From an uncultured Anaerolineales bacterium (lineage in GTDB: Bacteria; Chloroflexota; Anaerolineae; UBA1429): a DNA stretch of 64,000 bases. The notes under the pieces were generated by a model. The model was not told the origin of the DNA, made no database searches, and worked only from the letters and a program-made list of their open reading frames with translations. Positions 26,488-40,593 of this stretch are shown here, in pieces; the first letter of the stretch is position 1; each line of letters starts with the position of its first letter. Position numbers and translations under genes: made by a program. Location of the stretch: positions 113-64,112 of the forward strand of contig CAYZWT010000023.1 of assembly GCA_964482225.1 (NCBI GenBank), written 5' to 3'.

Positions 26488-27570
26488 ATGAACTGGAATC
26501 TTGTAACCGGCAGGCTCAGATTGGGACAGCGCCAGATCGGCGCTGTTTTCGGCGTTGGGATGGCCGTGTTGCTGGCCCTGATCGCGCGCCAGTCCTGGCT
26601 GGCCCAGCACGAGCCGCCGCGCCACACACCGACTCCGGTCTATGCTGTGGCCGCGCCTGCCGCCAACACGCCAACGCCCAGCGCTACCCCCACCCAGACG
26701 CCCACGCCGCAACCCACCTGGACGCCAGAGCCCACGCCCACGCCCAGCCCGACGGCGACCCTGGCGCCGACGGGCACGCCAGAGCCCACCGAGACGCCCT
26801 GGCCCACGGCGACACCCGAGCCCACGGCCACCCCGCGCCCCATGCCCACGCCCGACGGAGTGGCGCGCACCGTTCAGGTGCCGATTCTGATGTACCACTA
26901 TATCTCACAGCCGCCCGCCGGGGCCAACGCCGTGCGCCGCGATCTATCCGTGCCGCCCGACGTATTCGAGCAGCACCTGGCCTTTCTGCAGCAACGCGGC
27001 TACACCAGCATCTCGCTAGGCGACCTGGTCATGGCGCTCCAGATCGGGCAGCCTTTGCCCGAAAAGCCCATCGTGCTCACCTTTGACGATGGCTACCGGG
27101 ACCACTATGAGCACGCCTACCCCCTGCTGCAAGCCTATGGCTTGACCGGAACCTTTTTCCTGCTCACCGCTCCCATTGACCAGGGCCACCCCGGCTATGT
27201 CACCTGGGAGCAGGTGATCGAGATGGATGCCGCTGGCATGGAGATGGAGGCCCACGGGTATACCCACGACGACCTAAAGGGCCGCTCGCGCGAGTACTTG
27301 ATCTGGCAGATGCTGGGCTCCAAAGAGGCCATCGAGGCCCGCACGGGCAAGCCGGTGCGCATCTTTTGCTACCCCTCCGGGAGCTATGATGCGCTGGCCA
27401 TCTCGATTCTGCACGAGCTGGACTATTGGGCCGCTGTGACCATTCACTTTGGGCGCGAGCACCGCTCCGATCGCCCGTTCGAGCTGACCCGGCTGCGCAT
27501 CCACGGCAACTATGGTGTGGCGCAGCTTGGCGCCCTCCTGAGCGAGCCCGTGCCGGGGTCCGGGCAGTGA
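26488..27570 (+). CDS. Membrane-anchored polysaccharide deacetylase (NodB/CE4 domain) with a Pro/Thr-rich linker
   Basis: TM segment, (TPxP)n linker, VLTFDDGYRDHY and HGYTHDDL CE4 motifs. Divergent promoter TTGACA-17-TATCAT upstream (26437-26465). Confidence 0.8.
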   Translation: MNWNLVTGRLRLGQRQIGAVFGVGMAVLLALIARQSWLAQHEPPRHTPTPVYAVAAPAANTPTPSATPTQTPTPQPTWTPEPTPTPSPTATLAPTGTPEPTETPWPTATPEPTATPRPMPTPDGVARTVQVPILMYHYISQPPAGANAVRRDLSVPPDVFEQHLAFLQQRGYTSISLGDLVMALQIGQPLPEKPIVLTFDDGYRDHYEHAYPLLQAYGLTGTFFLLTAPIDQGHPGYVTWEQVIEMDAAGMEMEAHGYTHDDLKGRSREYLIWQMLGSKEAIEARTGKPVRIFCYPSGSYDALAISILHELDYWAAVTIHFGREHRSDRPFELTRLRIHGNYGVAQLGALLSEPVPGSGQ

Positions 27571-29309
27571 GCCAGGACACCCTTGCCCTGGCGGCGGTTC
27601 GCGACGAGCTGGAAAGCCTGCTGGTGGGGGGGCGTGTGCAGCGGGTGATCCGCCCCACGGAGTTGAGCATCGGGCTAGAGATCTATGCCGGGCAGCGACA
27701 TCAGGTGCTCTTGAGCGCCGAGGCCCAGGCGCCCCGCATCGCCCTGACCGATGAGCGCCTGCGGCGCGGCGCCGAGACGGCCTCGCCCCTGCAACTCTTG
27801 TTGCGCAAGTACGTGCGCGGCGCGCGCCTGGTCGCCATCGAGCAGCCCGAGCTGGAGCGCGTGCTGCGCTGGCGCTTTGCCGGGCCGGAGGGCGTGGTGG
27901 ATCTGGTCTGCGAGGTGATGGGCCGCCTGAGCAACCTGGTCCTGGTGGACGCCGACGGCGCGATCCTGGACGCGGCCAAACGCATCCCCGCTCACATCAA
28001 TCGCTACCGCGTGATTCTGCCCGGCGCGCCCTATGTGCCGCCTCCGCCCCAGGCCAAGGCGCACCCTCTGCACATCTCGCCGGACGAACTGGGCGCGGCT
28101 CTGGCCCAGAGCCGCGGCCCGCTTGAGCGCCGCCTGGTGAACGCCGTCCTGGGCCTGAGCCCGCTGGCGGCCCGCGAGGTGGTCTACCGCGCTCTGGGCG
28201 GCATGGCGCCTGAGGAGCCCCTGGCGGATGACGCCCTGGCGCGGCTACACGGGGTGTTGCAGTCGCTCATGGCCCTGCCCCAGACCCATGCCTGGAAGCC
28301 GTCCATCGGCTACCAGGTGCAGGCTGGGCAGCGCACGGCGGTGGCCTATGCGCCCTATGCGCTCACTCATCTGGACGCCTGGGAGCCCGTCGCCTCGATC
28401 AGCCAGGCGGCGGCCCTCTCCCTGGGCACGCTGCGCCCGCCTGATCCCTATGCCCAGGCGCGGGCCGATCTTCTGGCTCTCATCGAGGCGCAGCTCGAGC
28501 GCCAACGCGCGCGGCTGACCTCTCTGGCCCAGGCTGCCGTGGCGCCCGACGAACTAGAGACCCTCCAGTTTCGGGGCAACGCCATCCTGACCCTGGCCTG
28601 GAGCATCGCCCCCGGCCAGCCGAGCCTCACGGCCACCCGCGCACAGGTGACCGGCGAGGCTGGCCCCGGCGCCGATGCGCCTGTCGTCATTCCCCTGAAC
28701 CCAGACCTGAGCCCATCGGAGAACGCCCAGGCTGTCTTTCGCGAGTATCGCAAGCGCGTGGCTGCGGCGGAACAGGTTCCCGTGCGCATGGCCGAGGTTG
28801 AGGCCGAGGTCGCCTACCTGGAGCAGTTGCGTACCGACGCCGAGCTGGCCGAGGATCGCCCTGCGCTGGACTATGTGGGCGTCGCGCTGCAAGAGGCGGG
28901 CTACATCCCGCGCCAGGGGCGCCGCCGCAGCGCGCCCGCCGGCGAGCCGTTGCGCATTGTGGCCGAGGATGGCGCCACGATCCTGGTGGGGCGCAACAGC
29001 CGCCAGAATGACGAGGTAACCTTTCGGCTGAGCGCGCCCAATGACCTGTGGCTGCACGTGCGCGGCGCGCCCGGCGCCCACGTCATCGTCCGCAGCGGCG
29101 GTCAGCCGGTCTCAGAGGAGACGTTGGCCCAGGCGGCGGGCCTTGCGGCGGCCTATTCGGCGCTGCGCCGCGAGGGGCAAGTGCGAGTGGACATAACCGA
29201 GCGACGCCATGTGAAGCGTATCCCCGGCGGGCGCCCAGGCATGGTCACCTATCGCCAGGAACGGACGCTGCTGGCGACGCCCGTCTCTTCCGACCTATCA
29301 GAGGATTGA
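27567..29309 (+). CDS. rqcH: RqcH/Rqc2 (NFACT-family, FbpA-like) ribosome quality-control protein
   Basis: NFACT-N (LSNLVLVD), coiled coil, NFACT-R (GRNSRQNDEVTFRLSAPNDLWLHVRGAPGAHVIV). The GTG overlaps the upstream stop. Confidence 0.75.
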   Translation: MSQDTLALAAVRDELESLLVGGRVQRVIRPTELSIGLEIYAGQRHQVLLSAEAQAPRIALTDERLRRGAETASPLQLLLRKYVRGARLVAIEQPELERVLRWRFAGPEGVVDLVCEVMGRLSNLVLVDADGAILDAAKRIPAHINRYRVILPGAPYVPPPPQAKAHPLHISPDELGAALAQSRGPLERRLVNAVLGLSPLAAREVVYRALGGMAPEEPLADDALARLHGVLQSLMALPQTHAWKPSIGYQVQAGQRTAVAYAPYALTHLDAWEPVASISQAAALSLGTLRPPDPYAQARADLLALIEAQLERQRARLTSLAQAAVAPDELETLQFRGNAILTLAWSIAPGQPSLTATRAQVTGEAGPGADAPVVIPLNPDLSPSENAQAVFREYRKRVAAAEQVPVRMAEVEAEVAYLEQLRTDAELAEDRPALDYVGVALQEAGYIPRQGRRRSAPAGEPLRIVAEDGATILVGRNSRQNDEVTFRLSAPNDLWLHVRGAPGAHVIVRSGGQPVSEETLAQAAGLAAAYSALRREGQVRVDITERRHVKRIPGGRPGMVTYRQERTLLATPVSSDLSED

Positions 29310-29319
29310 GGAGCAACCC

Positions 29320-29703
29320 ATGTTGGGCGTAGGGCCGGAGCGGTTCGAGCAACTGATGGGACAAGCGGTGGACGACCTGCCCGAGTGGATCGCGGAGCAC
29401 ATGCAGAATGTGTATATCACCTTTGCCGCCTGGCCCACCAACCACCAAATGCGGGCCGCCAGGGTGGGGCGGGGGGGCATGTTGCTGGGGCTGTACGAGG
29501 GGGTGCCTCTCTCGCGTCGGGGGCGCGGCTATCACCTGGCCCCGCCCGATCGGATCACCCTCTTTCAGCGCCCCTTGGAGATCGTGGCGCGGGACGAGGC
29601 TGACCTGGTGGACCGCATCCAGCGCACCATCATCCACGAGATCGCCCACCACTTTGGCTTTTCCGAGGATGAGCTGGGCCGCCTGGAGGGACGGGGCGGC
29701 TAG
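29320..29703 (+). CDS. DUF1025-type putative zinc metallopeptidase (HExxH)
   Basis: IIHEIAHHFGFSEDEL. Confidence 0.6.
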   Translation: MLGVGPERFEQLMGQAVDDLPEWIAEHMQNVYITFAAWPTNHQMRAARVGRGGMLLGLYEGVPLSRRGRGYHLAPPDRITLFQRPLEIVARDEADLVDRIQRTIIHEIAHHFGFSEDELGRLEGRGG

Positions 29704-30950
29704 AGATCCTCTGCCAGGTCGGGGTAGAGCCTGCGTATGCAATCGGGGCAGATGCTATGGGTGAAATCCGCGCTGGAACGGTCCCTGACATAGACCTCGA
29801 TCTGCTCCCATTGCCCGTCCTCATCGCGGATGCGCTTGCAGTGGGCGCAGATGGGCAACAGTCCCTCTAGTGTGCGTACCTGTCCCAGCGCATCCTGGAG
29901 CGACGCGATCATCTGTTCGCGCTCGTGCTCCAACCGCCGGCGCTCGCTGATGTCCCGCAGGATTACCAAGCGACCCTGGCTACCATCTGGGCCCTGCATC
30001 AGAGGGACCATGCGCAGCTCGAGATAGCGCACCGGATCGTCCTCTAGCTTCAACTCGACCTGGGCTGCCTCTGTTCCCTCGGGCGCTGCCAGCGCGGCCC
30101 ACGGGTTGCCCAGTGCGGCAACGCCTTGCCCGATCGGATCAACTCCCAAGGGAGCGACGAGTTGCCGCCCCGTCGGGTTCAGGTCCACGATCCGGTTGCG
30201 GTCATCCAGCACAAGCACGCCATCGCTCATGGATTCGATCAGGGTATCCCTGGCCACCGGCACGATCTCCAGCCAGCGATAGCGGAACAGGCCGATGGAG
30301 AGGATGACGCCGGATAGGGTAAAGGCCACCGGGCTCAGATCGAGATCGGGCCTGGGGTTCAGCCCCACCAGGCTGATGACGTTGAGCGCCCAGGGGATCA
30401 ACATGCCGCCCAATAGGATCCAGGTCTGTACGCGGAACAGGCGCGGCCTGCGCCTGTGCGAGGCTGCCAACAGCACAATGGCCCATAGGAACAGGGCGTA
30501 CGAGTAGATGGCGTTGGCCCAGAACCAGGGGCCGCCGGCAAAGATCGAGCCCGCCGTGGGCTCGCGCAAGCCCCCAAAGAACAACCCGTGCCAGGTATCG
30601 GTGAAAAGGAGCAACAGGGTCAGCGCCGCCCAACTCACCAAGGCGCCGACGACGCCCCGGGAGAGCCAGCGTTGGCGGCCTGTGTATTGTACGGCAAACA
30701 GCCAGATCCACACCGGCACAGACACGACGCCCACATAGGTCAGGTCGAGCCAGAAAAAGTGACTGGGCCGCCACAGCGTGGTCCAATGCAGGGCATAGGC
30801 GCCGCTCCACCAGACCATGGCCATCGTCATCGAGGCCAGGGCGCTCGCCCCGGAGACGCGCCGCCGTCGCTGCCGCGCCGCCAGGGCCACCACCGCGGAG
30901 ACCAGGGCTGAGAGCAACAACAGGGTAGCGTACAGATGATTGGGAGGCAT
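29700..30950 (-). CDS. Membrane sensor: N-terminal 7TM domain, a PAS domain and a C-terminal Cys/His-rich (CxxC...HxxCPxC) module; no kinase domain
   Basis: Seven hydrophobic helices; PAS (ESMSDGVLVLDDRNRIVDLNP); LLPICAHCKRIRDEDGQWEQIEVYVRDRSSADFTHSICPDCI. Confidence 0.6.
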   Translation of the reverse strand: MPPNHLYATLLLLSALVSAVVALAARQRRRRVSGASALASMTMAMVWWSGAYALHWTTLWRPSHFFWLDLTYVGVVSVPVWIWLFAVQYTGRQRWLSRGVVGALVSWAALTLLLLFTDTWHGLFFGGLREPTAGSIFAGGPWFWANAIYSYALFLWAIVLLAASHRRRPRLFRVQTWILLGGMLIPWALNVISLVGLNPRPDLDLSPVAFTLSGVILSIGLFRYRWLEIVPVARDTLIESMSDGVLVLDDRNRIVDLNPTGRQLVAPLGVDPIGQGVAALGNPWAALAAPEGTEAAQVELKLEDDPVRYLELRMVPLMQGPDGSQGRLVILRDISERRRLEHEREQMIASLQDALGQVRTLEGLLPICAHCKRIRDEDGQWEQIEVYVRDRSSADFTHSICPDCIRRLYPDLAEDL

Positions 30951-31005
30951 GGGAGACCTCTCTCAGCGCCAATGGAATGGGTTCAGGCCAGTACGTCAGC
31001 GCCCA

Positions 31006-32037
31006 CTATGTCTGTGCAGGTTGTTGGCTGTGCGATTGCTCCTCATACGCTTTTTCGCTCAGGTAGCGCTCGGCCTCGATGGCGGCGGCTGCCCCGGCCC
31101 CTGCGGCGATCACGGTCTGGCGGAACCAGGGGTCTTGCACATCGCCGGCGGCATAGACGCCCGGCACGCTGGTGCGCTGGCGCTTGTCGGTGGCGATATA
31201 GCCCTCTGGGGTGAGATCGAGTTGGCCCTTGAAGAGCCAGGTATTGGGCACCAGGCCCACATAGACAAACACCCCATCGGCTTCCAGGATGCGCGTCTCA
31301 CCCGTCTGCATATCACGCAGCCGCACGCCCGTCACCGTGTTCTCGCCCAGGATCTCTTCCACCACCGAGTTCCAGACAAAGCGAATCTTGTCATTGGCTC
31401 GGGCGCGCTGCTCCAGAATGGGGCCGGCGCGCAGCTTGTCGCGGCGGTGAACGATGGTGATCTCTTGGGCAAAGCGGGTGAGATAGAGGCTCTCATCCAC
31501 CGCGCTATCGCCGCCGCCCACCACGACGATGCGCTTGTCTTTGTAGAAAAAGCCGTCGCAGGTAGCGCAGAACGAGACGCCGTGGCCGATAAACTTGCTC
31601 TCGCCGGGCACGTCCAGCTTGCGAGGCGAGGCGCCGGTGCAGATGATGATGCTCTTGGCCCGATAGGTGGGGCCGTATGTCTCGACCACGAAAGGGTCGC
31701 CGGAGAGGTCCACGCGGGTCACTTCTTCATAGAGGATCTCGGCGCCAAAGCGCGTGGCGTGGTCTGCCATCTGCTGGGCCAGGGCCATGCCGCCGATGCC
31801 TTCCGGAAAGCCGGGATAGTTCTCCATCTCGCTGGTGGTGGCCGCCTGGCCCCCCAGCGATTGGCCGACCAGGATCAGGGGCCGCAGTTGGGCCCGCCCC
31901 GCGTACAGCCCCGCCGTCAGGCCGGCCGGCCCGGCCCCGATGATGATCAGCTCGCGCGTCTGCTCATCCTGTCCGCTCTCCGCAGGCTTGCTTTGCTGCA
32001 AGCGGCTCATGTCTAGCGAAAACGACAGTTCACCCAT
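31006..32037 (-). CDS. trxB: Thioredoxin-disulfide reductase
   Basis: GAGPAG FAD site, CATC redox-active disulfide, GGGDSA NADPH site. Confidence 0.85.
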   Translation of the reverse strand: MGELSFSLDMSRLQQSKPAESGQDEQTRELIIIGAGPAGLTAGLYAGRAQLRPLILVGQSLGGQAATTSEMENYPGFPEGIGGMALAQQMADHATRFGAEILYEEVTRVDLSGDPFVVETYGPTYRAKSIIICTGASPRKLDVPGESKFIGHGVSFCATCDGFFYKDKRIVVVGGGDSAVDESLYLTRFAQEITIVHRRDKLRAGPILEQRARANDKIRFVWNSVVEEILGENTVTGVRLRDMQTGETRILEADGVFVYVGLVPNTWLFKGQLDLTPEGYIATDKRQRTSVPGVYAAGDVQDPWFRQTVIAAGAGAAAAIEAERYLSEKAYEEQSHSQQPAQT

Positions 32038-32144
32038 CTGTGCCTCCCACGGCGCGGCGCACCCAGCGTGCAAACAACGATATGACAGGCCACATGGTAC
32101 CCCCGACGCGGCCAGAACTCAAGTTCGTGGAAAGCAGCAGATGG

Positions 32145-32203: not shown

Positions 32204-35200
32204 CTACGGTTGCACCTGAAAGATCAGCCCCTCGGTGCGGCCAAAGACGTCCGGCTCGTACATCTGATAGGCCAGCGCCGGCATCACCCGGAAGAAACCG
32301 GGCGTTGTGCAGCGCAGTTGATACTGGAACTCGTAGGTGCCCCGGGCCAGCTCGGTGGCAAAGAGCACCAGTTTCTCGTCGCGCAGCTCGGTATGGGTGG
32401 GCCAGTGGGTGAACCACCACAGGTCATAGTCCCACTCGGCCTCGATCACGGGCCGCAAGCCCGCATCCATCTCGTCCACGCGGCGCGTGGTGGCCAGGCT
32501 GGGGTCAATCCCCTCGCACCCGGCAGGGTAAGCGTCCTCCAGCACCAGATAGTAGACATCGCGCGGCGCGATCAGCGTCAGCTTGACGTTGACGATGTCG
32601 TTTACCCGCGCGGCGGTCACCGGCTCGTCCGGACGATCCGCCAGGGCGTGCTCGCGATAGACGATCACGCCCCGATCCAACGGCTGGATCTGCTCGATGG
32701 GCAGATAGTACTGTAGGAACGCGCTATAGTAGAGCCGCCCGGGGGCGTCCCCCGGCTGGCGCTCGATCACGACATAGCTATCCTGACCCTGGGCCAGCTC
32801 CTCGATGGGCACATTGGCCGTGACCTGCTGGCCCACCGTGGCGGGCGTCACCTGCCCGGCTGCCTGCTCGACCCCGTCCACGCTCAGGCTGTAGGCATAG
32901 TTCGCCTCTAGCTCGCCCGTGGCGACCATGACGTCCGTCAGCGCCAGGATGGCCCAGACGTTCTCCTGGGTGGTCTCCCAGCGGCCCGTGGAGCGCGCCA
33001 TGGTCAGCCAGCGCACGGCCTGTGGCAGCAGGGCCTGCTCCGGGTCCATCCAGACCAGGGCGCGCAGCACCAGGGCGCTGGTGCGCGTATCGGTGCTCAT
33101 CTGCCAGGGGCTGTGGCGCTCCTCTTGCCAGCTCATGCCCGTGGCGCTGAGCAGCGCTGCGTCCACCAGCTCGTTCTCCAGGATGCCCACGCGGGCCGGC
33201 TCGTCCGGCTCTAGCAGGCGCAACGTCATGCCCAAGTAGGCCTGGGCAAAGAGCGAGAGCTGGCCGCGATCCTCGAACAGGGCCACGGCGCGCCCCAAGT
33301 CGCCCTGGCCTGCCTCGGCCAGCGCATAGAGCACCGCCGCACGCGTGTCATAGTGATCCTGGGTGACGGGGCGCGTGCTATCCAGCCAGTTGTACAGGTA
33401 CTCGACGGCGCGATCCACGCTGCGGGCATCCACGATGAACCCTGCCTCACGGGCCTGGGCCATGCCGAACAAGGCATAGGCCGTGATCAGCGGCGAGCTC
33501 TCCGAGGCAGCCCACCAGCCCCAGCCGCCATCGTTGCCCTGCAAGGTATAGAGACGTTGCAGCCCGATGGCCACCTGTTGCGGCAAGCGCGCCGCCAGGT
33601 CCGGATCCTCCAGCCCCAGGTCGCGCAGCGCCCGGAAGGTGGCCACGTTGGGCAGAAAGCGGCTGACGGTCTGCTCGACGCAGTCGTAGGGGAAAGCCTC
33701 TAGGTAGTCGAGTCCTTCACGCATGGCCGCTGCCAGCGAGGGCTCCAGGTGTACGGTCAGCCCACCCTGGCGCGACATAACGTCTTCGGGCAGCCGCAGC
33801 GCCTCGATGACGCGATCCTGCACCTGGCCCGCCGTGCCCACCACCTCGGGTGTGCTGGCATGGTAGACCGGGATGCTGATGCGCGTGGCATCGTGGTGGC
33901 CGCCGCCCTGGGCGCTGTAGGTGAGTACCACCTCATCCACCGGCGCCACTGTTGCAGGCCACTGGACGGTTTGGCGGCCGCCCGCCGGCACGGGGATCGT
34001 CTGCTCGGCATTGAAGAACATCAGCCCGATGGCCTCCAAGGTCACCTGGATATCGAGATCGTCGTCGGTGTTGTTGTGGATCACGGCGCCCAGGGTCGGC
34101 TCGTCATCTATGACCATAAAGCGCGGCGTCATGGGCCGGATCATGATCGCCAGGCTGCTGACGATATCGGTCTGGCCGCGGCCCACCAGGGTCTCTTCCG
34201 TCACCGCCTGAGCGGTCATGCGCCAGGTGGTCAGGTTATCGGGCAGCGTGACGCTGACCGTAGCCGTTCCGTCGGTGCCGGTGCGCACCGAAGGCAGCCA
34301 CAGGGCCGTATCGGGGAACTCGGTGCGGAGACCCTCGCCGCCATCGCCGCCGCCGCCGCCCTTGCCGTCCTGGTCGGCGGCATCGGGCGCCTCAGGGGCG
34401 CGCCGGCGCGTCAGCGAGAGGGCCGTGTTGACGGCCAGCCCGCGCTCGCCGTAAAAGGCGGCCACGATATCAGGGGGCGCGCCGCCCACCAGACTCTCGA
34501 CGGCCAGGTCCACCATCTGCACAGCCACCTCGGCCTGGGCCGGGCGCCCGGCATAGTCGCGCACCTGGATGGTAAAAGTCGCCTCGTCGCGCGGCTGATA
34601 GCCGGCCTGCTTGTCAGGCGTGATGGTCACCTCGAGTTCGCGCTGCTCCGGCGAGACGGTGAGCATGACATAACCCAGGCGAAAGCCCGGATCGCGCACG
34701 TCCTCGCCCATGCCGCGTACCAACACCACCGAGACAAAGACGTTGGGCGCGTACTCGGGCAGGATCGGCAGGTCCAGCAGCTCGCTGTTGCTCTCCAGCT
34801 CGATCAAGCGGTATTCCAGGATGCCGCCGCGCTCGATGGTCAGCAGCGCCGTCACCGGCCCCGCAAAGGGCGAGGGGATCAGGATCGAGGCCGTATCGCC
34901 GGGGGCATAACTCTTTTTGTCCGCCACCAGCTCGATGCGGTTGTTGTCCTGCTGGCCCCAGTTGATGAACGCCGTGTCGCTGACCCAGACATAGAGGGCG
35001 CTGCGCACCTGGTTACCGGCGTCATCGGCGGCGTTGGCGGTTACCTTGTAGGCGCCGCCCTCGCGCGGCGTAAAGGTCAGCCGCGCCTGGCCGCGAGCGT
35101 CGGTGAGCACCGTCTCGGTGTGCACGGGCGTGCTGCGCACCTGGTTCTCCCAGTAGTAGTTGCCATCGGCGCCGCGCACCTGGACGCTCAGCCACTCGTG

Positions 35201-38086
35201 AAGCGCTACCACCAGCTCTACCGTGCGGCGCGCCAGAGGCTCGCCCTGGGTGTCCACCGTCAACACGCCGATGCCCAGGGGCTCGTTGGCCGTCCCCACA
35301 TAGCTCTCGGCGGTCAGGCCGACGTATAGCCCGCCCTTGTGTACGATGGCGGCGGCCTGGCCGGTGACCTCCTGGTTGTTGACGTCCACCACGGACATCT
35401 GGACCGTCAGCATGCGGCTCTGGAAGCCCTGGAGCTCGGTGGGCACGGTGATGGTCAAGCGTCCGTCGGCGTCGGTGCGCCCGCGCCCCTCGGTCAGCAG
35501 GCCCAGGTCCAGGGTGCGCGCCTCGGCGTCGTCATAGTCATAGTCGCCAAAGCTGTACCAGCCCTCGCCCTGGTAGCGATCGAAATAGTAGGGCGCGCCG
35601 AACACGCGCCAGAGCACGTCCGCATCGGACACAGGGCCGCCAAAGTAGAACTCGGCTGCCACCTCGGCCTGCATCGGCTCGCCTGAGACGTACTCGGCCT
35701 GGTCCAGACTGGCGGTCACCTGAAACTCGGGGCGGCGATACTCGGCCACCTGGAAAGGCGCCTCGAAATACTGCTCGCCGTAGGTAAAGATCAGGACATA
35801 GTAGCCCAGGGCGGCGTCGTCGCCCAGGAGCACCTGGCCATCCAGCGAACCCACATCGTTCAGCGTCAGGGTGTCCTGCCACACCTCGCGCCCCTGGCTG
35901 TCAATCAGCATGACGCGCACGGGCGCATCGGTGGGGGGCAGGCTGTAGCGCACATCGTCATCGGCCCGCAGGAAGCCTTTGTAGTAAACCGTCTGGCCGG
36001 GCCGATAGATGCGGCGCTCGGTGTAAAAATAGCCGGTATACTCTTGCACCTCCCAGGCCACGGGCAGGTTGTAGAACCAGGGAGCGATGCCGTCGCTCCA
36101 TTGGTTCTGGGCTGCGCCGATCTCGTCGCCCGCATAGGCGATGGCCAGGATGCTCTCCCAGCGCCCCTGCTCGGGGACCGCCAGGGTAAGCAGGCCATCG
36201 GCATCGGTGCGCCCGCGATCCACCTCTTGCCCGGTGGCGCCATAGAGCACCACCTCCACATCCGCCAATGGTTGCCCGTCCTGCAGATCCGTGACCCACA
36301 CCAGCGCCTGGTCGGGCGCCGTCTTGAGGGTCACATTCATGGGCGTCACCACCAAGATATGGTGCTCGGAGCGGCTCACCTCGGGGGCCGTTGCCCGCAA
36401 TACATAGATGCCCGAGGGCAGCCGTTGCGGCAGATCGGGCGCCAGGCGGGTGGTTAGGGTGCGCGTCTCGTTCAGCGCGCCCGTGGCCCGCTGCGACCAG
36501 GACGCGATCAGGTCTTGCGGCTGCGCCCGGAAGCGATCCCAGTTGGGCCAGCCTCCTTCTTGGGTCAAGTTCAGCAGCCCTTCGGGCGAAAGCTCGAACA
36601 GCTCCAGGTCAACCCTCGAGATGTTGACGTACCGCACAGAGATGCTGTCATCCGTGTACGAGTTGTACACGCCCACCGGCCCCTGGGTCACCAGGCTCAG
36701 GGATGGTTCCGTGGCGCGGGTGACAAAGCCCAAGACAAACTCTTCCGACAGCGCCTCTCCAAAGCGGTCCAGCGCCTCGGTCGAGATGGTCAGGGTATAG
36801 CGGGTCGAGGGACGCAGGGAGGTCGAGACCCACAGCTCGGTGTCGTCGTACTGCCAGAACGTGTAGGTGCTGACAGTCGGGGTGATGGTAAGAGCCTTCT
36901 GGACGGCCTCGCGGTCCATAGGCGCGGAAAAGTTGATTTGCACCGATTGCCAGAGGTCCACGCGGGTGGCCCCTTGAGCAGGGCTGGTGCGCGTCACCCG
37001 GGGCAGGGGTGCCACCTGAAAGCGCCAGGCGTCATCCTGGGGGATGGTGGCCTCGCCCTGGGCGGCATGTGCACCGGCGGCCAGCCGGATCACGTACTCG
37101 GCGCCGCGCAGCAGGGGCTCATCGGGCGTAAAGCGCAGTGAGAGGTCCTGCCAGGAGAACGCGCCCGCCACGGGCTCGCCCGAAGGCGCCACGGCAAGCT
37201 CAAAGCGTTCCTCCACCGTCGCAGCATCCATCTCCTGGTTGAACATGAGCGTGATCTCGGCGGCGGGATCCACCAGGGTCGCCTGATGGAGAGGATAGAC
37301 CGCCACGACGGCGGGCGGCTGGGTGGCAAAGGACCACTGGTAGCCCTCGTCCAACAGGGCGCCGCCGGCCTCCAGCCCAGTCGCCACCACGGCGGTATAG
37401 GTCGTCCCCGCCAACAGACGCTCGGCGGGCGTAAAGCGATAGACAGATGTATTCACCCAGACGCCCTCGCCCGGCACCGCCGGGCTCAGGGCCAGCGGGT
37501 TCACCAGCTCGCTCTGCTCCCGGATCGCCGTCAGGGGCACCACGGGGCGGTTGAACACCACCGTGATCTGGGAGGCGGGGTCTACATTCTCGCTTTCGGG
37601 CCGGGGGAACACGTCCGCCACCTCGATATAGCCCACGGTGCGAAAGCGAAAGGCGATCTCGCGGGCCAGTTCGAGCCGTGTGGTGGACATGGCCGATGCG
37701 TCTACTGTGACGCTATAGACTTGATCGCGCTCCCAGCCATCAACCGGCGCAAAGCGCATCGTGTCGTCGGCCGGCCAGGTGACGCTGCCCGCGACCTCGG
37801 GCGAGAGGCGCAGGGCCGCCTCGACGCTGGCGCGATCCATGGGCTGATCGAACACCAGTTCCAGGGCGCCATCCAGGGCCAGTTCCTCGCCCGAGGCGGG
37901 CGATTGGCCCAGCAGGCGCGGGGGCAGTGGGGGCAACGGTGTGCTGGTTGCCTCCGGTACGGCTGTCGGCGGCAGCACCACCTCCAGCGAGGGCACAGGC
38001 GTCGGAAGGGGCTCGCCCGTCTGGCAGCCCGTCAAGACGCCGAGTAGGAACAACAAGCCCAGCGCGAAAACCAGGGTACGTTTCAT
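32204..38086 (-). CDS. Bacterial alpha-2-macroglobulin (YfhM/ECAM-like), 1960-aa lipoprotein with an intact thioester motif
   Basis: Lipobox LTGC; multiple MG/Big-like domains; thioester CVEQ (FPYDCVEQTV); C-terminal A2M receptor-binding-like domain. Confidence 0.85.
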   Translation of the reverse strand: MKRTLVFALGLLFLLGVLTGCQTGEPLPTPVPSLEVVLPPTAVPEATSTPLPPLPPRLLGQSPASGEELALDGALELVFDQPMDRASVEAALRLSPEVAGSVTWPADDTMRFAPVDGWERDQVYSVTVDASAMSTTRLELAREIAFRFRTVGYIEVADVFPRPESENVDPASQITVVFNRPVVPLTAIREQSELVNPLALSPAVPGEGVWVNTSVYRFTPAERLLAGTTYTAVVATGLEAGGALLDEGYQWSFATQPPAVVAVYPLHQATLVDPAAEITLMFNQEMDAATVEERFELAVAPSGEPVAGAFSWQDLSLRFTPDEPLLRGAEYVIRLAAGAHAAQGEATIPQDDAWRFQVAPLPRVTRTSPAQGATRVDLWQSVQINFSAPMDREAVQKALTITPTVSTYTFWQYDDTELWVSTSLRPSTRYTLTISTEALDRFGEALSEEFVLGFVTRATEPSLSLVTQGPVGVYNSYTDDSISVRYVNISRVDLELFELSPEGLLNLTQEGGWPNWDRFRAQPQDLIASWSQRATGALNETRTLTTRLAPDLPQRLPSGIYVLRATAPEVSRSEHHILVVTPMNVTLKTAPDQALVWVTDLQDGQPLADVEVVLYGATGQEVDRGRTDADGLLTLAVPEQGRWESILAIAYAGDEIGAAQNQWSDGIAPWFYNLPVAWEVQEYTGYFYTERRIYRPGQTVYYKGFLRADDDVRYSLPPTDAPVRVMLIDSQGREVWQDTLTLNDVGSLDGQVLLGDDAALGYYVLIFTYGEQYFEAPFQVAEYRRPEFQVTASLDQAEYVSGEPMQAEVAAEFYFGGPVSDADVLWRVFGAPYYFDRYQGEGWYSFGDYDYDDAEARTLDLGLLTEGRGRTDADGRLTITVPTELQGFQSRMLTVQMSVVDVNNQEVTGQAAAIVHKGGLYVGLTAESYVGTANEPLGIGVLTVDTQGEPLARRTVELVVALHEWLSVQVRGADGNYYWENQVRSTPVHTETVLTDARGQARLTFTPREGGAYKVTANAADDAGNQVRSALYVWVSDTAFINWGQQDNNRIELVADKKSYAPGDTASILIPSPFAGPVTALLTIERGGILEYRLIELESNSELLDLPILPEYAPNVFVSVVLVRGMGEDVRDPGFRLGYVMLTVSPEQRELEVTITPDKQAGYQPRDEATFTIQVRDYAGRPAQAEVAVQMVDLAVESLVGGAPPDIVAAFYGERGLAVNTALSLTRRRAPEAPDAADQDGKGGGGGDGGEGLRTEFPDTALWLPSVRTGTDGTATVSVTLPDNLTTWRMTAQAVTEETLVGRGQTDIVSSLAIMIRPMTPRFMVIDDEPTLGAVIHNNTDDDLDIQVTLEAIGLMFFNAEQTIPVPAGGRQTVQWPATVAPVDEVVLTYSAQGGGHHDATRISIPVYHASTPEVVGTAGQVQDRVIEALRLPEDVMSRQGGLTVHLEPSLAAAMREGLDYLEAFPYDCVEQTVSRFLPNVATFRALRDLGLEDPDLAARLPQQVAIGLQRLYTLQGNDGGWGWWAASESSPLITAYALFGMAQAREAGFIVDARSVDRAVEYLYNWLDSTRPVTQDHYDTRAAVLYALAEAGQGDLGRAVALFEDRGQLSLFAQAYLGMTLRLLEPDEPARVGILENELVDAALLSATGMSWQEERHSPWQMSTDTRTSALVLRALVWMDPEQALLPQAVRWLTMARSTGRWETTQENVWAILALTDVMVATGELEANYAYSLSVDGVEQAAGQVTPATVGQQVTANVPIEELAQGQDSYVVIERQPGDAPGRLYYSAFLQYYLPIEQIQPLDRGVIVYREHALADRPDEPVTAARVNDIVNVKLTLIAPRDVYYLVLEDAYPAGCEGIDPSLATTRRVDEMDAGLRPVIEAEWDYDLWWFTHWPTHTELRDEKLVLFATELARGTYEFQYQLRCTTPGFFRVMPALAYQMYEPDVFGRTEGLIFQVQP

Positions 38087-40593
38087 GGCGTCTCACCTCT
38101 TGAGAATGTCTCGGCCAGCACAGTGATCTCTACGGATGCGCTCTCGGTTGGTTTCTCTTGTCCGATATGACGTGTGGCGGAAAAGACGTGTTCCCCCTCC
38201 TGCAATGGCCAAAGCATGCGATAGGGCGGGGCGGTCCATACCTGGATGACCTCGCCATCGAGCCAGAGGCGCAATTCGTCGCCGGGGGCGCAGGCAGCGC
38301 ACACGGCGGCCACCTCGAGCTGCTGGTGCTCCGGCGGCAGCTCGCGCGACAGGCGATACACCGCGCGGGGGTCCGGCGAGACGAGATAAGGCGCGTCGCC
38401 ATCCCCTTGGCTCCCATTGTCTGCCCCGAGCCCACCATCCGCATCCCGGGCCATCTCTGGGGGCAGGGGCAAGCCCTGATCCACGGCCCACGCCAGGGCG
38501 TCGGCGGGCCAGTAGGTCACGGCCCGCAGGATGCGCCGCTCGGCCGGCGTCTCGTCCGTGGCGGGCGCCCCTGTGAGGGCGTCCAGCTCGACCAGCCGGT
38601 GCATGTCGCAGGTCTCGGTGGGAACGTTCTCCGGCAGGAACAGCTCTTGGCGGCGGTGGTGGCAGGCGGGGCCCGGCAGCTTGCCCGAGCCTGCGCAGAC
38701 CTCGACCTCCACCAGCCCCTCGGGCCGGACGAAAGGCGCCGGCGCCGTGCGGTGCAGCCGCCGCATCAGGGTATTCCAGATGGGGCCCGCGCCGGTGATG
38801 CCCGTGGCGCGCTCCATGGGCGCGCCGTCGGCGTTGCCCACCCAAACCCCCACGGTCCACGCGGTCGTATAGCCCAGGGTCCAGTTGTCACGCCAGTTGT
38901 TGGTGGTGCCCGTCTTGGCTGCCGCAGGAAAGGGCAGCTCCAGCACGCTGCCGTAGCCAAAGCTGGGGATGCGCGCCTGGGGGTCGGCGAGGATGTCCGT
39001 CACCAGATAGGCGATGCGCGGATCCAGGGCCTGCTGGGGCTCGGGGGGCGTGTGGGCGTAGAGTAGGCGGTCCTGGGCGTCGCGCACCTCGGAGATCAGG
39101 TAGGGCTGCACCAGTTGGCCGCCCTGGGCCAGGGCGGCATAGGCGCCGGTCAGTTGCAGCAAGCGCACCTCACCGCCGCCCAGGGTCAGGGCCAACCCCT
39201 GGCGCTCGGGGTGTGAGAGGCTGTCAATGCCCACGCGCCGGGCCATATCGGCCAGGGCTTGGGGGCCGATGCGATCCAGCACCCGCACGGCCACCACATT
39301 GTACGACGAGCCCAGGGCCTCGCGCAGCGAAACCGGCCCGCGAAAGATGTGATCATAGTTGATGGGCACATAGCTCTCGCCCTCGGCCGTCTGGAACGAG
39401 GTGCGCACATCCGAGATCACCGTGGCGGGGGAGAGACCCCGTTCAAAGGCTGCCGCATACGTGAACGGCTTGAGGGCCGATCCAGGTTGACGTAACGCCA
39501 GAGCCGCGTTGACCGCGCCATCAATCGAGGCGTCGAAATAGGCGGGGCTGCCCACCATGACCTGCACCGCGCCATCGGGCGACAGGGCCACCACGGCGGC
39601 GTTGCGCACCCGGTGACCGGGGTTCTCACTGGTGGGCTGGTTCAGCTTGGCCAGGTGGCGCCGCACCTGGAGCTCGGCCTCTTGCTGCAAGCCCCAATCC
39701 AGGGTGGTGCGGATCGTTAGTCCCCCCTGGGACAATGCCTCCTCGTCCAGGATGCGCTCCAGTTCTTCGCGCACCAGCATGACAAAGTGGGGCGCGCGAA
39801 TGCCCAGGTGTGCGCTGCCATAGCGCAACGGCTCGCGGGCTGCGAGGCTGGCGGCCTCGGCGGTGATATAGCCGGCGCGCGCCATCAGCGCCAGCACGGT
39901 GGCCTGGCGCTCCCGGGCCGCCTCAGGGTGGGTGAGGGGGTTATAGGCGGCGGGCGCTTGCAGCAGCCCCGCCAGCATAGCCGATTCGGCCAGGTTCAGC
40001 TCGGCGGCGGGCTTGGCGAAATAGGCCCGCGCGGCGGCCTCTACCCCGTAGGCCAGGTTGCCAAAGTAGGACTCGTTCAGATAGAGGGCCAGGATCTCGT
40101 CTTTGGCCAGGGTGCGGGTCAGCCGAAAGGCCAACCATGCCTCACGCACCTTGCGCCCCAGGCTCTGCTCATAGCGCTCCTCGGGCAGCAACATCTGGCG
40201 CGCCACCTGCTGGGTGATGGTGCTGGCGCCCGAGACGATCTCGCCCTGGCGCAGGTTCAGCCACAGAGCGCGCAGGATGGCTGGGGGGCTAAAGCCCGGG
40301 TTGCGGTAAAAGCTGGCGTCCTCGGTGGCGATGACGGCCTGGCGCAGGTGCAGGGGCATCTCTTCCAGGGGGATGGCGCGCTGGGCCCCGCTGTGGGGAT
40401 CCATCAGCTCGTACAGGCGCTCGCCGTGGCGATCCACGATGACGCTCGAGGGCGCGGGCCGCGCGCCTGCCAGCGCGTCGCCGTTCAAGGGCGCCAGCCA
40501 GTGGAGCAGGCCCAGACCCAGGGCGATGCTCGCCAGCAAGGCGATGGCCACCCTGGCAAGGATGCATCGGCGTGGGCTGCGTTCCGTGTTCAT
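38083..40593 (-). CDS. pbpC: Penicillin-binding protein 1C (GT51 transglycosylase + transpeptidase + PbpC C-terminal domain)
   Basis: EDASFYRNPGFS and TITQQ GT51 motifs, then a transpeptidase region. Overlaps the A2M start (ATGA). Confidence 0.85.
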   Translation of the reverse strand: MNTERSPRRCILARVAIALLASIALGLGLLHWLAPLNGDALAGARPAPSSVIVDRHGERLYELMDPHSGAQRAIPLEEMPLHLRQAVIATEDASFYRNPGFSPPAILRALWLNLRQGEIVSGASTITQQVARQMLLPEERYEQSLGRKVREAWLAFRLTRTLAKDEILALYLNESYFGNLAYGVEAAARAYFAKPAAELNLAESAMLAGLLQAPAAYNPLTHPEAARERQATVLALMARAGYITAEAASLAAREPLRYGSAHLGIRAPHFVMLVREELERILDEEALSQGGLTIRTTLDWGLQQEAELQVRRHLAKLNQPTSENPGHRVRNAAVVALSPDGAVQVMVGSPAYFDASIDGAVNAALALRQPGSALKPFTYAAAFERGLSPATVISDVRTSFQTAEGESYVPINYDHIFRGPVSLREALGSSYNVVAVRVLDRIGPQALADMARRVGIDSLSHPERQGLALTLGGGEVRLLQLTGAYAALAQGGQLVQPYLISEVRDAQDRLLYAHTPPEPQQALDPRIAYLVTDILADPQARIPSFGYGSVLELPFPAAAKTGTTNNWRDNWTLGYTTAWTVGVWVGNADGAPMERATGITGAGPIWNTLMRRLHRTAPAPFVRPEGLVEVEVCAGSGKLPGPACHHRRQELFLPENVPTETCDMHRLVELDALTGAPATDETPAERRILRAVTYWPADALAWAVDQGLPLPPEMARDADGGLGADNGSQGDGDAPYLVSPDPRAVYRLSRELPPEHQQLEVAAVCAACAPGDELRLWLDGEVIQVWTAPPYRMLWPLQEGEHVFSATRHIGQEKPTESASVEITVLAETFSRGETP

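What the first reader, a model, noticed from the sequence alone, without database searches (positions are those of the whole stretch)
29700..30950. 7TM-PAS sensor whose only output is a conserved Cys/His-rich C-terminal module
The protein has an N-terminal seven-helix membrane domain of the HisKA_7TM type and a single PAS domain. It has no HisKA/HATPase, GGDEF, EAL or HTH domain.

It ends in LLPICAHCKRIRDEDGQWEQIEVYVRDRSSADFTHSICPDCIRRLYP. This compact CxxC...(F)THxxCPxC unit looks like a zinc-binding or redox-responsive signalling module.

I recall similar C-terminal tails on PAS/GAF proteins in other phyla, but I cannot name a characterised function. The output mechanism is therefore unknown; it could be a zinc-ribbon protein-interaction or redox switch.
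Basis: partly seen in the sequence, partly recalled or inferred. Interest (0 to 1): 0.55.

Follow-up and report, generated by a model that had tools for sequence, protein, structure and literature searches.

The report
Unnamed zinc-finger output module on sensors
A membrane sensor protein ends, where its relatives carry an enzyme, in a small and extremely conserved cysteine/histidine module that tens of thousands of bacterial sensor proteins share but that no searched database or paper names, so a common bacterial signalling output is still uncharacterised.

Summary
Window 29700-30950 (-) encodes a 416-aa protein with HisKA_7TM (E 1e-56) and one PAS domain. It has no kinase, GGDEF, EAL or HTH, and it ends in the quoted Cys/His tail.

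The tail is a real, very large domain family:
- 24,582 clusters (50% identity) match it.
- It is almost always C-terminal.
- The first-to-last Cys span is a fixed 37 residues, and C,C,R,W,H,C,C are invariant.
- A heptad coiled coil in fixed register (35 residues from the PAS DIT motif) leads into it.

It follows PAS, GAF, REC, HAMP, Cache, MASE and 7TM inputs and never accompanies a known output. Homologues of this same 7TM-PAS cassette carry GGDEF, a kinase core or HD-GYP in its place. REC-module genes sit directly behind histidine kinases.

Pfam, NCBIfam, PADLOC, PDB sequences, Foldseek and full-text paper searches gave no named match.

AlphaFold (pLDDT 87) gives a treble-clef-like knuckle/helix finger. 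No gene neighbour is conserved, about half of the hosts are membrane proteins, and the core is net acidic.

Best reading: a coiled-coil-coupled, probably zinc-binding, effector domain that signals by binding a partner encoded elsewhere. The target is unknown. Metal binding and the partner are inferred, not shown.

The parts
29700..30950 (-). Whole gene: 416-aa 7TM-PAS sensor ending in the Cys/His module (stop codon 29700-29702).
   Evidence: ORF list. The identical protein is recorded on 19 public contigs and named only 'PAS domain-containing protein'.
30258..30923 (-). HisKA_7TM membrane sensor domain, residues 10-231. Seven hydrophobic helices. Arg-rich loops alternate, which implies N-terminus outside and C-terminus in the cytoplasm.
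   Evidence: Pfam PF16927, E 1.2e-56, profile 1-224/224. A crude hydropathy scan finds six or more segments. The topology is my inference from the positive-inside rule.
29934..30248 (-). Single cytoplasmic PAS domain, residues 235-339, ending in the 'DIS' (DIT-type) motif at D333.
   Evidence: PAS_4 at 31.8 bits (cut-off 23.1) and PAS at 25.8 bits (cut-off 22.6).
29862..29945 (-). Conserved heptad (coiled-coil, S-helix-like) linker, residues 336-363: ERRRLEHEREQMIASLQDALGQVRTLEG. It is part of the conserved module.
   Evidence: Hydrophobic a/d positions lie at -21, -17, -14, -10, -7 and -3 from the first Cys. The DIT-to-first-Cys distance is 35 residues in 156 of 160 cases. Predicted helix. 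Mean identity among 7TM-PAS relatives is 60%, against 41% for PAS.
29721..29861 (-). Cys4+His finger core, residues 364-410: LLPICAHCKRIRDEDGQWEQIEVYVRDRSSADFTHSICPDCIRRLYP. Putative metal ligands are C368 (29847-29849), C371 (29838-29840), C401 (29748-29750) and C404 (29739-29741). H398 (29757-29759) is also invariant.
   Evidence: Invariant columns in A1, A4 and A5. Fixed 37-residue span in 339 of 340 occurrences. AF2 pLDDT 86.8: the first Cys pair is a knuckle before a beta-hairpin and the second pair sits at a helix N-terminus.
29703..29720 (-). Short variable acidic C-terminal tail (DLAEDL).
   Evidence: Across the family, 8-20 poorly conserved residues usually follow the last Cys.
31006..32073 (-). 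Thioredoxin-reductase-like gene immediately upstream on the same strand (55-nt gap). Probably co-transcribed. A context feature only, not a conserved partner.
   Evidence: Pyr_redox_2 E 2.7e-55. The gap contains GAGAGAGG before the ATG and no promoter or terminator match. The linkage is absent from the Anaerolineae relatives L070 and L007.

Best explanation
**What it is**
The gene encodes a cytoplasmic-membrane sensor: seven TM helices of the HisKA_7TM type, then a cytoplasmic PAS domain. Its transmitter is not an enzyme. It is a ~75-residue module that none of the searched databases or papers names. The module has about three heptads of coiled coil, in a fixed register from the PAS core. These run directly into a 47-residue finger with four invariant Cys and one invariant His. 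The finger most likely binds one Zn2+ in a treble-clef-like fold.

**Proposed mechanism**
1. The protein is a parallel homodimer.
2. A signal sensed by the 7TM/PAS part is passed as a rotation or register shift of the coiled coil, as in PAS-kinase, PAS-GGDEF and PP2C proteins.
3. This changes the relative position or exposure of the two fingers.
4. That switches binding or release of a soluble partner protein encoded elsewhere in the genome.
5. Many paralogous sensors would converge on the same partner. The logic is that of chemoreceptor tips converging on CheA/CheW, or of a membrane anti-sigma factor holding its sigma.

**Shown here**
- The domain composition.
- The size, conservation and strict C-terminal position of the family.
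- Exclusive pairing with input domains.
- Replacement of GGDEF, kinase or HD-GYP on the same sensor cassette.
- HK -> REC-module operons.
- Absence of a conserved neighbour.

**Inferred**
- Metal identity.
- Dimerisation.
- Signalling by partner binding.
- The partner itself, which is unknown.
For: **A real, conserved domain family**
- 24,582 representatives at E<=1e-3.
- 100% invariant P, C, C, R, W, H, C, C and >=94% K, D, G, E, Y, F, P, Y among 318 unique top-scoring segments; 37-residue span in 339 of 340.
- 53-68% identity between this window's tail and its best matches across phyla.
- More conserved than the sensor it is attached to: linker 60% and core 62%, against 7TM 50% and PAS 41%.

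**It occupies the output position**
- It lies within 8-20 residues of the C-terminus in most proteins.
- It follows PAS, GAF, REC, HAMP, dCache, CHASE, PocR, MASE3/6, 7TMR-DISM, Reg_prop or bare TM or coiled-coil segments. No known output domain accompanied it in 122 + 79 proteins.
- Of 63 homologues of this protein's 7TM-PAS part, 19 carry the module at the same position, 36 contain a GGDEF motif, and the rest include HisKA/HATPase_c (4 by precomputed Pfam) or HD-GYP (2) proteins.
- REC-module genes lie directly downstream of HisKA+HATPase_c kinases in L020, L050 and L067.

**Coiled-coil coupling**
- Heptad a/d pattern and an invariant 35-residue DIT-to-Cys spacing.

**Metal finger**
- AF2 pLDDT 86.8. 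C11/C14 form a knuckle before a hairpin and C44/C47 sit at the first turn of a helix. An independent lower-depth model agrees.

**Trans-acting protein partner rather than DNA**
- No family other than two-component parts recurs among 206 neighbours of 79 loci.
- About 53% of complete hosts have predicted TM segments.
- The core is net acidic: mean -1.4, and -4 in this window.
- Absent from phages and nearly absent from plasmids.
Against: - No partner has been identified, and nothing here shows protein binding.
- Metal binding is untested. Five invariant potential ligands exceed the four needed for one Zn, so the chemistry may be different: Fe, Fe-S, an intersubunit site, or a reactive Cys or His.
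- The statistics come from the best-scoring few hundred sequences, not from all 24,582. Gene calling in the neighbourhoods (greedy longest ORFs) and the TM prediction (hydropathy) are crude.
- Three close relatives (P0276, P0286, P0291) carry a winged-helix-like extension after the module. So the module is not always the last element, and a link to DNA binding cannot be dismissed.
- Foldseek has little power on a 59-residue model, so 'no structural relative' is weak evidence.
- InterPro, CDD and COG, and subscription journals, could not be searched. The module may have been described somewhere I could not look.
Confidence: 0.45

Rival explanations
1. The module is mainly a redox or metal sensor, not an output. 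It would be a Zn-thiolate switch of the RsrA/Hsp33 type, or a rubredoxin-like Fe or Fe-S site. Oxidation or metal loss would unfold the finger and change the oligomeric state of the protein.
For: - The module has a CxxC pair, a CPxC pair and an invariant His.
- The H-x2-C-x2-C motif with a Cys 26 residues upstream resembles the ZAS arrangement. This comparison rests on my own knowledge of RsrA.
- In this window the gene sits 55 nt behind a thioredoxin-reductase gene, with no terminator between them.
- The genomes that carry the module are dominated by anaerobic lineages: Thermodesulfobacteriota, Anaerolineae, Syntrophales, Cloacimonadota and anammox.
Against: - REC-module, GAF-module, HAMP-module and TM-only-module proteins would then have inputs only and no output.
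- The module sits exactly where GGDEF, kinase or HD-GYP sit on the same sensor cassette.
- The trxB linkage is not conserved in relatives.
- Rubredoxin and zf-HC2 are absent from the list returned at E<=10.
- Many non-ligand surface residues are invariant, which suggests a macromolecular interface.
Confidence: 0.2
2. The module is a dimeric nucleic-acid-binding zinc finger. The proteins would then be one-component or response-regulator transcription or RNA regulators. Analogues are PAS + GATA finger in fungal WC-1, and coiled-coil + ANTAR.
For: - The fold is treble-clef-like and follows a dimerising coiled coil.
- K4, K5, R7, K38 and K39 are conserved.
- REC-module proteins lie behind kinases with no other regulator in the operon.
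- Galperin et al. predicted DNA or RNA binding for the analogous helix + 2xCxxC output HalOD2 (PMC5847659).
- A few relatives add a winged-helix-like domain.
Against: - The core is net acidic: mean -1.4, and -4 in this protein.
- About half of the hosts are integral membrane proteins, many polytopic. From general knowledge, this is unusual for DNA-binding outputs.
- No conserved adjacent target genes were found.
- Adding a winged helix would be redundant if the finger already bound DNA.
Confidence: 0.15
3. The module has no signalling role of its own. It would be a structural dimerisation or stability cap, or a localisation tag. The real output would be made by the PAS or REC domains binding partners.
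For: - Single-domain PAS and REC proteins are known to signal by protein binding (general knowledge).
- The module is small and follows a dimerising helix.
Against: - Near-total conservation of about 20 non-ligand positions across many phyla is far more than a cap needs.
- Coiled-coil-only + module proteins have nothing else to act with (P0200, P0202, P0242).
- The spacing to the PAS core is fixed.
- It substitutes for catalytic outputs on the same sensor cassette.
Confidence: 0.08
4. The module is a minimal metal-dependent enzyme, a beta-beta-alpha-Me (His-Me finger/HNH-like) nuclease or phosphoesterase framed by two Cys pairs.
For: - The layout is CxxC - beta hairpin - helix - CxxC with a ~37-residue span, as in zinc-stabilised HNH motifs (my knowledge).
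- D, D, E and H are invariant.
- There is a weak local resemblance of DDxGYWxQIExY to the EXOG/EndoG metal-site helix NNSGYWNRIEMY (E 0.6).
Against: - The E-value is not significant.
- HNH and Endonuclease_NS are absent from the list returned at E<=10.
- There is no His at the end of the first strand, where the general base sits in His-Me fingers.
- A widespread family attached to diverse sensors (with at least two copies in two MAGs) is implausible for a nuclease.
- It is not in PADLOC defence models.
Confidence: 0.03

Closest known systems
HisKA_7TM-PAS sensors with enzymatic outputs (PF16927 histidine kinases; 7TM-PAS-GGDEF diguanylate cyclases; 7TM-PAS-HD-GYP)
   Same: The same N-terminal 7TM + PAS cassette, at 33-51% identity. 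The output begins at the same point after the PAS DIT motif.
   Different: No DHp/CA kinase core, GGDEF or HD-GYP. A 75-residue coiled-coil + Cys4His finger takes their place.
Methyl-accepting chemotaxis protein signalling domain (logic only)
   Same: - The most conserved part of the protein.
- Shared by many sensors with diverse inputs.
- Both membrane and soluble forms exist.
- Genes are scattered, with no partner next door.
- This suggests convergence on a common hub.
   Different: No sequence or structural relationship. The module is 75 residues rather than a ~300-residue helical hairpin. No methylation sites. The hub is unknown.
ZAS anti-sigma domain (RsrA, ChrR; Pfam zf-HC2)
   Same: A small Cys/His metal site (H-x3-C-x2-C plus an upstream ligand ~25 residues away) that holds a soluble regulator. 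Often membrane-anchored, and some are redox switches (my knowledge).
   Different: - The motif here is H-x2-C-x2-C with an extra CxxC.
- The predicted fold has a beta-hairpin and is not all-helical.
- No zf-HC2 in the list returned at E<=10.
- No adjacent sigma-factor gene.
HalOD2 and TackOD1, archaeal response-regulator output domains (Galperin et al. 2018, PMC5847659)
   Same: Uncharacterised REC-linked outputs made of a helical segment followed by conserved CxxC pairs, predicted to form Zn fingers.
   Different: - HalOD2 has 20-25 residues between the pairs (29 here) and is confined to a few halobacteria.
- TackOD1 has 11 Cys.
- Homology was not tested because no sequences were at hand.
- The present module is bacterial and far more abundant.
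Treble-clef zinc fingers (ClpX N-terminal ZBD, GATA fingers, Fin)
   Same: A Cys knuckle in a hairpin plus two ligands at the N-terminus of a helix. They are small, often dimeric, protein- or nucleic-acid-binding modules (fold class from my knowledge).
   Different: - An extra helix is inserted between the hairpin and the second Cys pair.
- There is an invariant fifth ligand-type residue, His.
- Only sub-threshold, inconsistent Pfam hits were found: Fin in 1 of 6 proteins at E 0.02, zf-C4pol at E 0.01-0.1.
- Foldseek gave no match below E 0.8 in either search.
ANTAR and other coiled-coil-coupled small outputs
   Same: A ~55-75-residue output attached through a coiled coil to REC, PAS or GAF inputs.
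   Different: ANTAR is an all-helical, metal-free RNA binder, is cytosolic, and usually sits next to its target operon. This module is Cys/His-rich, often membrane-anchored, and has no conserved neighbours.

Membership tests
HisKA_7TM sensor family (PF16927) | Full-length match to the 7TM profile above the gathering score | tested here: met
   192.5 bits against a cut-off of 28.6; profile positions 1-224 of 224.
PAS domain | Match to a PAS-clan profile above the gathering score | tested here: met
   PAS_4 at 31.8 bits (cut-off 23.1) and PAS at 25.8 bits (cut-off 22.6), residues 235-339.
Two-component sensor histidine kinase | DHp (HisKA-type H-box) and HATPase_c catalytic domain | tested here: not met
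   No HisKA or HATPase_c at E<=1. NCBIfam kinase models match only the PAS part, at 11-25 bits against cut-offs of 334-1400.
Signal-transduction output (transmitter/effector) domain, operational definition | Occurs C-terminal to diverse input domains and excludes other outputs | tested here: met
   122 representatives and 79 genome-derived hosts carry only input domains. Two-copy proteins are input-module-input-module.
Signal-transduction output (transmitter/effector) domain, operational definition | Interchangeable with known outputs on the same sensor cassette | tested here: met
   Of 63 homologues of the 7TM-PAS part, 19 carry the module, 36 contain a GGDEF motif, and the rest include HisKA/HATPase_c (4) or HD-GYP (2) proteins.
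Signal-transduction output (transmitter/effector) domain, operational definition | Serves as the effector of a response regulator paired with a kinase | tested here: met
   A HisKA+HATPase_c gene lies immediately upstream of a REC-module gene, on the same strand, in L020, L050 and L067.
Signalling-helix / coiled-coil-coupled output | Heptad-periodic helix of fixed length between the input core and the output | tested here: met
   Hydrophobic positions at -21, -17, -14, -10, -7 and -3. DIT-to-Cys distance is 35 in 156 of 160 cases. Helix predicted. Dimerisation itself was not tested.
Zinc finger of treble-clef type | Four invariant ligands: a knuckle in a hairpin plus two at a helix N-terminus | tested here: inconclusive
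   The ligand pattern is invariant and the AF2 secondary structure fits. Model coordinates could not be inspected, and Foldseek found no relative.
Zinc finger of treble-clef type | Stoichiometric Zn2+ binding | not testable with these tools
   Needs ICP-MS or a PAR assay on purified protein.
ZAS anti-sigma factor (zf-HC2) | H-x3-C-x2-C motif in a helical domain, zf-HC2 profile match, adjacent ECF sigma gene | tested here: not met
   The motif is H-x2-C-x2-C. zf-HC2 is not in the list returned at E<=10. No sigma-factor family appears among the recurrent (top-25) families of 206 neighbours. A beta-hairpin is predicted.
His-Me finger / HNH nuclease | General-base His at the end of strand 1, metal-binding Asn/His in the helix, profile match | tested here: not met
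   No His in or after the first strand. HNH and Endonuclease_NS are not in the list returned at E<=10. The EXOG resemblance has E 0.6.
Rubredoxin | CxxCG and CPxCG knuckles, rubredoxin profile match | tested here: not met
   The knuckles are CxxCK and CPxC[A/M/L/V]. Rubredoxin is not in the list returned at E<=10. Iron binding was not tested.
HalOD2 (archaeal RR output) | Sequence similarity to the HalOD2 alignment; two CxxC pairs 20-25 residues apart | not tested
   Only the published description was available (PMC5847659). The spacing here is 29.

The most novel reading that the evidence does not exclude
The coiled-coil + Cys4His finger is a major, unrecognised class of bacterial transmitter domain. 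Thousands of membrane and soluble sensors and response regulators, in at least 13 phyla, would use it to converge on one still-unidentified conserved cytoplasmic hub. That would be a signalling pathway parallel to two-component phosphotransfer, chemotaxis arrays and c-di-GMP. The hub might be a small winged-helix regulator of the kind found fused after the module in P0276, P0286 and P0291.
Probability: 0.3. Interest if true: 0.85.

Novelty: new variant of a known kind. Interest (0 to 1): 0.62.

Why it matters
Censuses of bacterial signal transduction classify proteins by their output domain. Proteins with this tail are currently labelled only 'PAS domain-containing protein', 'response regulator' or 'hypothetical', so they count as sensors with no output.

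If the module is an effector, about 24,600 sequence clusters gain an assignable output and a new signalling route becomes open to experiment. These clusters are especially common in Thermodesulfobacteriota, Chloroflexota, Acidobacteriota and Spirochaetota.

The module is small (75 residues), soluble, and so conserved that one biochemical characterisation would transfer to the whole family: metal content, structure and partner. It could also be used as a compact, portable output for engineered sensors.

Tried and rejected
**Domain and structure databases**
- Pfam at E<=1 and E<=10, NCBIfam and PADLOC on the full protein, the tail, the family consensus and four short family members. Only sub-threshold, inconsistent knuckle hits appeared: Zn_ribbon_HMPTM, DUF3039, DZR_2, zf-C4pol, and Fin in 1 of 6.
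- PDB by sequence (phmmer) and by profile. Nothing below E 0.2. The best hits were coiled-coil noise and an 18-residue EXOG motif.
- Two AF2 models searched with Foldseek against the PDB. No match below E 0.8.

**Gene neighbourhood**
- 79 genome loci, genes at positions -3 to +3 clustered by BLAST, and 206 neighbours scanned with Pfam. No recurrent family apart from REC, HisKA, HATPase_c and PAS. Triplets such as GMP synthase or MacB come from syntenic Acidobacteria.
- trxB linkage as a clue to redox function: not conserved.
- Contexts of stand-alone coiled-coil + module proteins. An HD-GYP gene lies upstream in two related genomes, and a PilZ gene lies 295 nt upstream of a REC-module gene (L003). 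This is anecdotal and too few cases to build on.
- tblastn of the winged-helix-like extensions against all held loci and the window: no free-standing relative nearby.

**Literature and other collections**
- Motif strings, HXXCXXC + PAS, 'output domain' + CXXC, zinc ribbon + PAS/GAF/REC, and the S-helix paper. No description of this module was found.
- Two Galperin reviews on response-regulator outputs are not held in the library.
- Phage and plasmid collections: 0 and 1 match.

**Rejected on the evidence**
- Compositional or chance motif.
- Histidine kinase.
- ZAS domain.
- HNH nuclease.
- Rubredoxin.
Full report
**1. The observation**

The minus-strand ORF 29700..30950 encodes 416 residues.
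- Pfam places a complete HisKA_7TM domain at residues 10-231 (E 1.2e-56).
- One PAS domain lies at 235-339, above the gathering scores.
- Pfam and NCBIfam show no kinase core, GGDEF, EAL, HD-GYP or HTH, even at E<=1.

Arg-rich loops alternate between the seven hydrophobic segments. This implies N-out/C-in topology, so PAS and the tail are cytoplasmic. That is my inference from the positive-inside rule; hydropathy is.

The quoted tail is present. The C368-x2-C371 ... H398-x2-C401-P-x-C404 motif (29739-29849) is the only such motif in six-frame translation of the window. The identical protein is on 19 public metagenome or genome contigs. Its only name is 'PAS domain-containing protein'.

**2. 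The tail is a large, sharply defined family**

- The 71-residue tail alone retrieves relatives at 55-69% identity (E down to 7e-26).
- A profile of these, run exhaustively against 1.84 billion cluster representatives, finds 24,582 proteins at E<=1e-3, 20,121 at E<=1e-10 and 3,716 at E<=1e-30.
- The word-indexed search found 7,285 of 8,000 scored candidates. None carries a precomputed Pfam domain on the module, and the names are generic.

In 318 unique top-scoring segments:
- The first-to-last Cys span is 37 residues in 339 of 340 occurrences.
- P-2, C0, C3, R7, W13, H30, C33 and C36 are invariant.
- K4, D9, G11, E17, Y19, F28, P34 and Y41 are >=94% conserved.
- Usually only 8-20 variable residues follow the last Cys.

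Conservation starts about 25 residues upstream, in a helix whose hydrophobic positions (-21, -17, -14, -10, -7, -3) follow a heptad pattern. The distance from the PAS 'DIT' motif to the first Cys is exactly 35 residues in 156 of 160 cases, including this protein (D333 to C368).

These numbers describe the best-scoring members, not the whole family.

**3. It behaves as an output domain**

*Architectures.*
- Among 122 representatives the module follows PAS (95), GAF (10), REC (6), HAMP (6), dCache, CHASE, PocR, MASE6, Tll0287 or HisKA_7TM.
- Among 79 hosts from named genomes it follows PAS (~35), REC (11), HisKA_7TM (6, plus this window's protein, which was also in that scan), HAMP (5), GAF (4), MASE3 (3), dCache (3), 7TMR-DISM, VUPS or Reg_prop/Y_Y_Y.
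- No known output domain ever accompanies it.
- There are also TM-only + module, HAMP + module and coiled-coil-only + module proteins. Tandem REC-module-REC-module and MASE6-module repeats also occur.

*Output swap.* I searched with the 7TM-PAS part of this protein alone (residues 1-340) and found 63 homologues.
- 19 carry the module, in most cases at the same position (~368).
- 36 contain a GGDEF motif.
- The rest include HisKA+HATPase_c (4) and HD-GYP (2) proteins.
- The GGDEF versions are as close (45-47% identity) as most module versions.

So the module is one of several interchangeable transmitters on one sensor cassette.

*Two-component pairing.* REC-module genes lie immediately downstream of classical HisKA+HATPase_c kinases, on the same strand, in L020, L050 and L067.

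*Conservation by region.* Within the 7TM-PAS-module subfamily the linker (60%) and core (62%) are more conserved than the 7TM (50%) and PAS (41%) parts.

**4. Predicted structure**

With 113 aligned sequences, AlphaFold2 models the 59-residue core at mean pLDDT 86.8. The elements in order are:
1. A loop carrying C11/C14.
2. A short beta-hairpin (16-18 and 24-26).
3. A helix (27-34).
4. A loop containing the invariant His.
5. C44/C47 at the first turn of a second helix (45-51).

A shallower model of the 75-residue tail adds the N-terminal helix.

A knuckle plus helix-N-terminus ligands is the treble-clef arrangement, a fold class I know from the literature. It is not a classical two-hairpin zinc ribbon.

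I could not inspect model coordinates. Foldseek against the PDB gave nothing below E 0.8 for either model, and PDB sequence and profile searches gave nothing significant. Metal identity is therefore inferred from four invariant Cys in a cytoplasmic protein. The invariant fifth residue, H398, is unexplained.

**5. Where the signal goes**

Gene neighbourhood gives no partner. In 79 loci from at least 13 phyla, BLAST clustering of genes -3..+3 and Pfam scans of 206 neighbours found only REC, HisKA, HATPase_c and PAS recurring. Everything else occurs in three or fewer, syntenic, loci.

In this window the gene follows a thioredoxin-reductase gene by 55 nt. There is a GAGAGAGG ribosome-binding site and no terminator or promoter match. 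It converges on a Zincin_1 gene with a 4-bp overlap. The trxB link is absent from the Anaerolineae relatives.

Three further observations bear on the target:
- About 53% of complete hosts have predicted TM segments, and 46% have two or more (crude method).
- The core is net acidic (mean -1.4; -4 here).
- The module is absent from phages and found in 1 of 72,556 plasmids.

A small, non-enzymatic domain that is equally common on polytopic membrane and soluble sensors, is acidic, and is scattered in the genome fits best a protein-binding effector acting on a partner encoded elsewhere. This is the logic of chemoreceptor tips or membrane anti-sigma factors. The conserved fixed-register coiled coil suggests the usual rotation or register-shift coupling described for kinases, cyclases and PP2C phosphatases. 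That comes from general knowledge, the S-helix paper PMC1592074 and the abstract of PMC12143880. I put this explanation at about 0.45.

**6. Rivals**

- *Redox or metal switch (0.2).* It draws on the CPxC pair, the ZAS-like spacing, the trxB neighbour and the anaerobe-rich distribution. It leaves REC-, GAF- and TM-only-module proteins without any output.
- *Nucleic-acid binding (0.15).* It fits a dimeric finger and orphan REC-module regulators. It conflicts with the acidic charge, the membrane fraction and the lack of linked targets.
- *Structural cap (0.08).* It cannot explain invariance of about 20 non-ligand positions.
- *Mini-nuclease (0.03).* It rests only on a non-significant EXOG-like motif (E 0.6) and lacks the catalytic His.

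**7. A lead**

Three close relatives (P0276, P0286, P0291) continue after the module with ~65 residues. One has a precomputed HTH_IclR hit. Their best, non-significant (E 0.1-1.4), PDB matches include several winged-helix domains: ADAR1 Z-alpha, ArsR and DtxR-type.

Two readings are possible:
- A lineage-specific addition of a DNA-binding output.
- A Rosetta-stone hint that the usual trans partner is a small winged-helix regulator.

No free-standing relative lies in the held loci.

**8. Comparison with what is known, and novelty**

The N-terminal two thirds are an ordinary member of the HisKA_7TM-PAS sensor family. The protein is not a histidine kinase. The module is not a member of zf-HC2/ZAS, HNH, rubredoxin, ClpX-ZBD or any other Pfam, NCBIfam or PADLOC family, as far as those sequence profiles can tell.

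The nearest described things are analogues:
- HalOD2 and TackOD1, uncharacterised Cys-rich outputs of archaeal response regulators (PMC5847659).
- Treble-clef protein-binding fingers.

Nine full-text searches found no description of this module (S-helix paper). InterPro, CDD, COG and most subscription journals were not searchable, so 'undescribed' is provisional.

I rate it a new variant of a known kind: a modular sensor with a new, very widespread, non-enzymatic transmitter domain.

**9. Verdict**

The window protein itself is one ordinary member of the family. The interest lies in the family: large, extremely conserved, in the output position, unnamed, and with an unknown target.

- Interest: 0.62.
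- Most novel reading still open: a hub-convergent signalling pathway. I give it a probability of about 0.3.

Noticed in passing
window 29700-29703 and 30951-31005: The sensor gene and the convergent Zincin_1 metallopeptidase gene (29320-29703, +) overlap by 4 bp at their stop codons. The upstream thioredoxin-reductase gene ends 55 nt before the sensor's ATG, with a GAGAGAGG RBS and no terminator match. trxB and the sensor are therefore probably one transcript in this genome only.
   Followed up: partly
P0276, P0286, P0291 (relatives of the window protein); no window coordinates: Three 7TM-PAS-module relatives carry a ~65-residue winged-helix-like extension after the module. One has a precomputed HTH_IclR hit, and weak PDB matches include ADAR1 Z-alpha, ArsR and DtxR winged helices. 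This may be a Rosetta-stone clue to the module's partner.
   Followed up: partly
module residues 376-389 (window ~29784-29825); PDB EXOG chains: The invariant stretch DDxGYWxQIExY resembles the metal-site helix NNSGYWNRIEMY of EXOG/EndoG-type beta-beta-alpha-Me nucleases. The match is 18 residues at E 0.6, which is not significant.
   Followed up: partly
L083 5001-5417, L085 5001-5417: Stand-alone coiled-coil + module proteins (138 aa, no sensor domain) lie ~80 nt downstream of an HD-GYP (HD_5/HD) gene in two related genomes. In L085 they sit at the end of a kinase/REC gene string. A PilZ gene precedes a REC-module gene in L003. These are anecdotal links to c-di-GMP signalling.
   Followed up: no
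P0011, P0012, P0013, P0016, P0021; L067 5599-7434: The whole input + module unit is duplicated in tandem within single proteins (REC-module-REC-module, TM-module-TM-module) and as adjacent genes.
   Followed up: partly
window 32204-38086 (-) and 38083-40593 (-): A 1960-aa bacterial alpha-2-macroglobulin-like gene overlaps by 4 nt a transglycosylase/transpeptidase (PBP1C-like) gene. This is the classic A2M-PbpC pair.
   Followed up: partly
window 9416-9556 (+): A cobalamin riboswitch (66.9 bits) lies inside the mechanically called ORF 9326-11038, which has weak squalene-hopene-cyclase-like repeats. The true start of that gene must be downstream of the riboswitch.
   Followed up: no
window 52200-53579 (+): An unusual regulator: an N-terminal LuxR/GerE HTH fused to a Kelch-repeat beta-propeller.
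   Followed up: no
window 3705-5585 (+): A single 626-aa ORF combines an Ice_binding-like domain with a C-terminal sortase domain.
   Followed up: no
window 27426-29309 (+): An NFACT/RqcH-type ribosome-quality-control homologue (NFACT_N + NFACT-R) lies two genes from the sensor. The JGI gene call is 580 aa, so the TTG start of the 627-aa ORF is probably too far upstream.
   Followed up: no
window 63355-63427 (+): A tRNA gene (Rfam, 62.6 bits).
   Followed up: no
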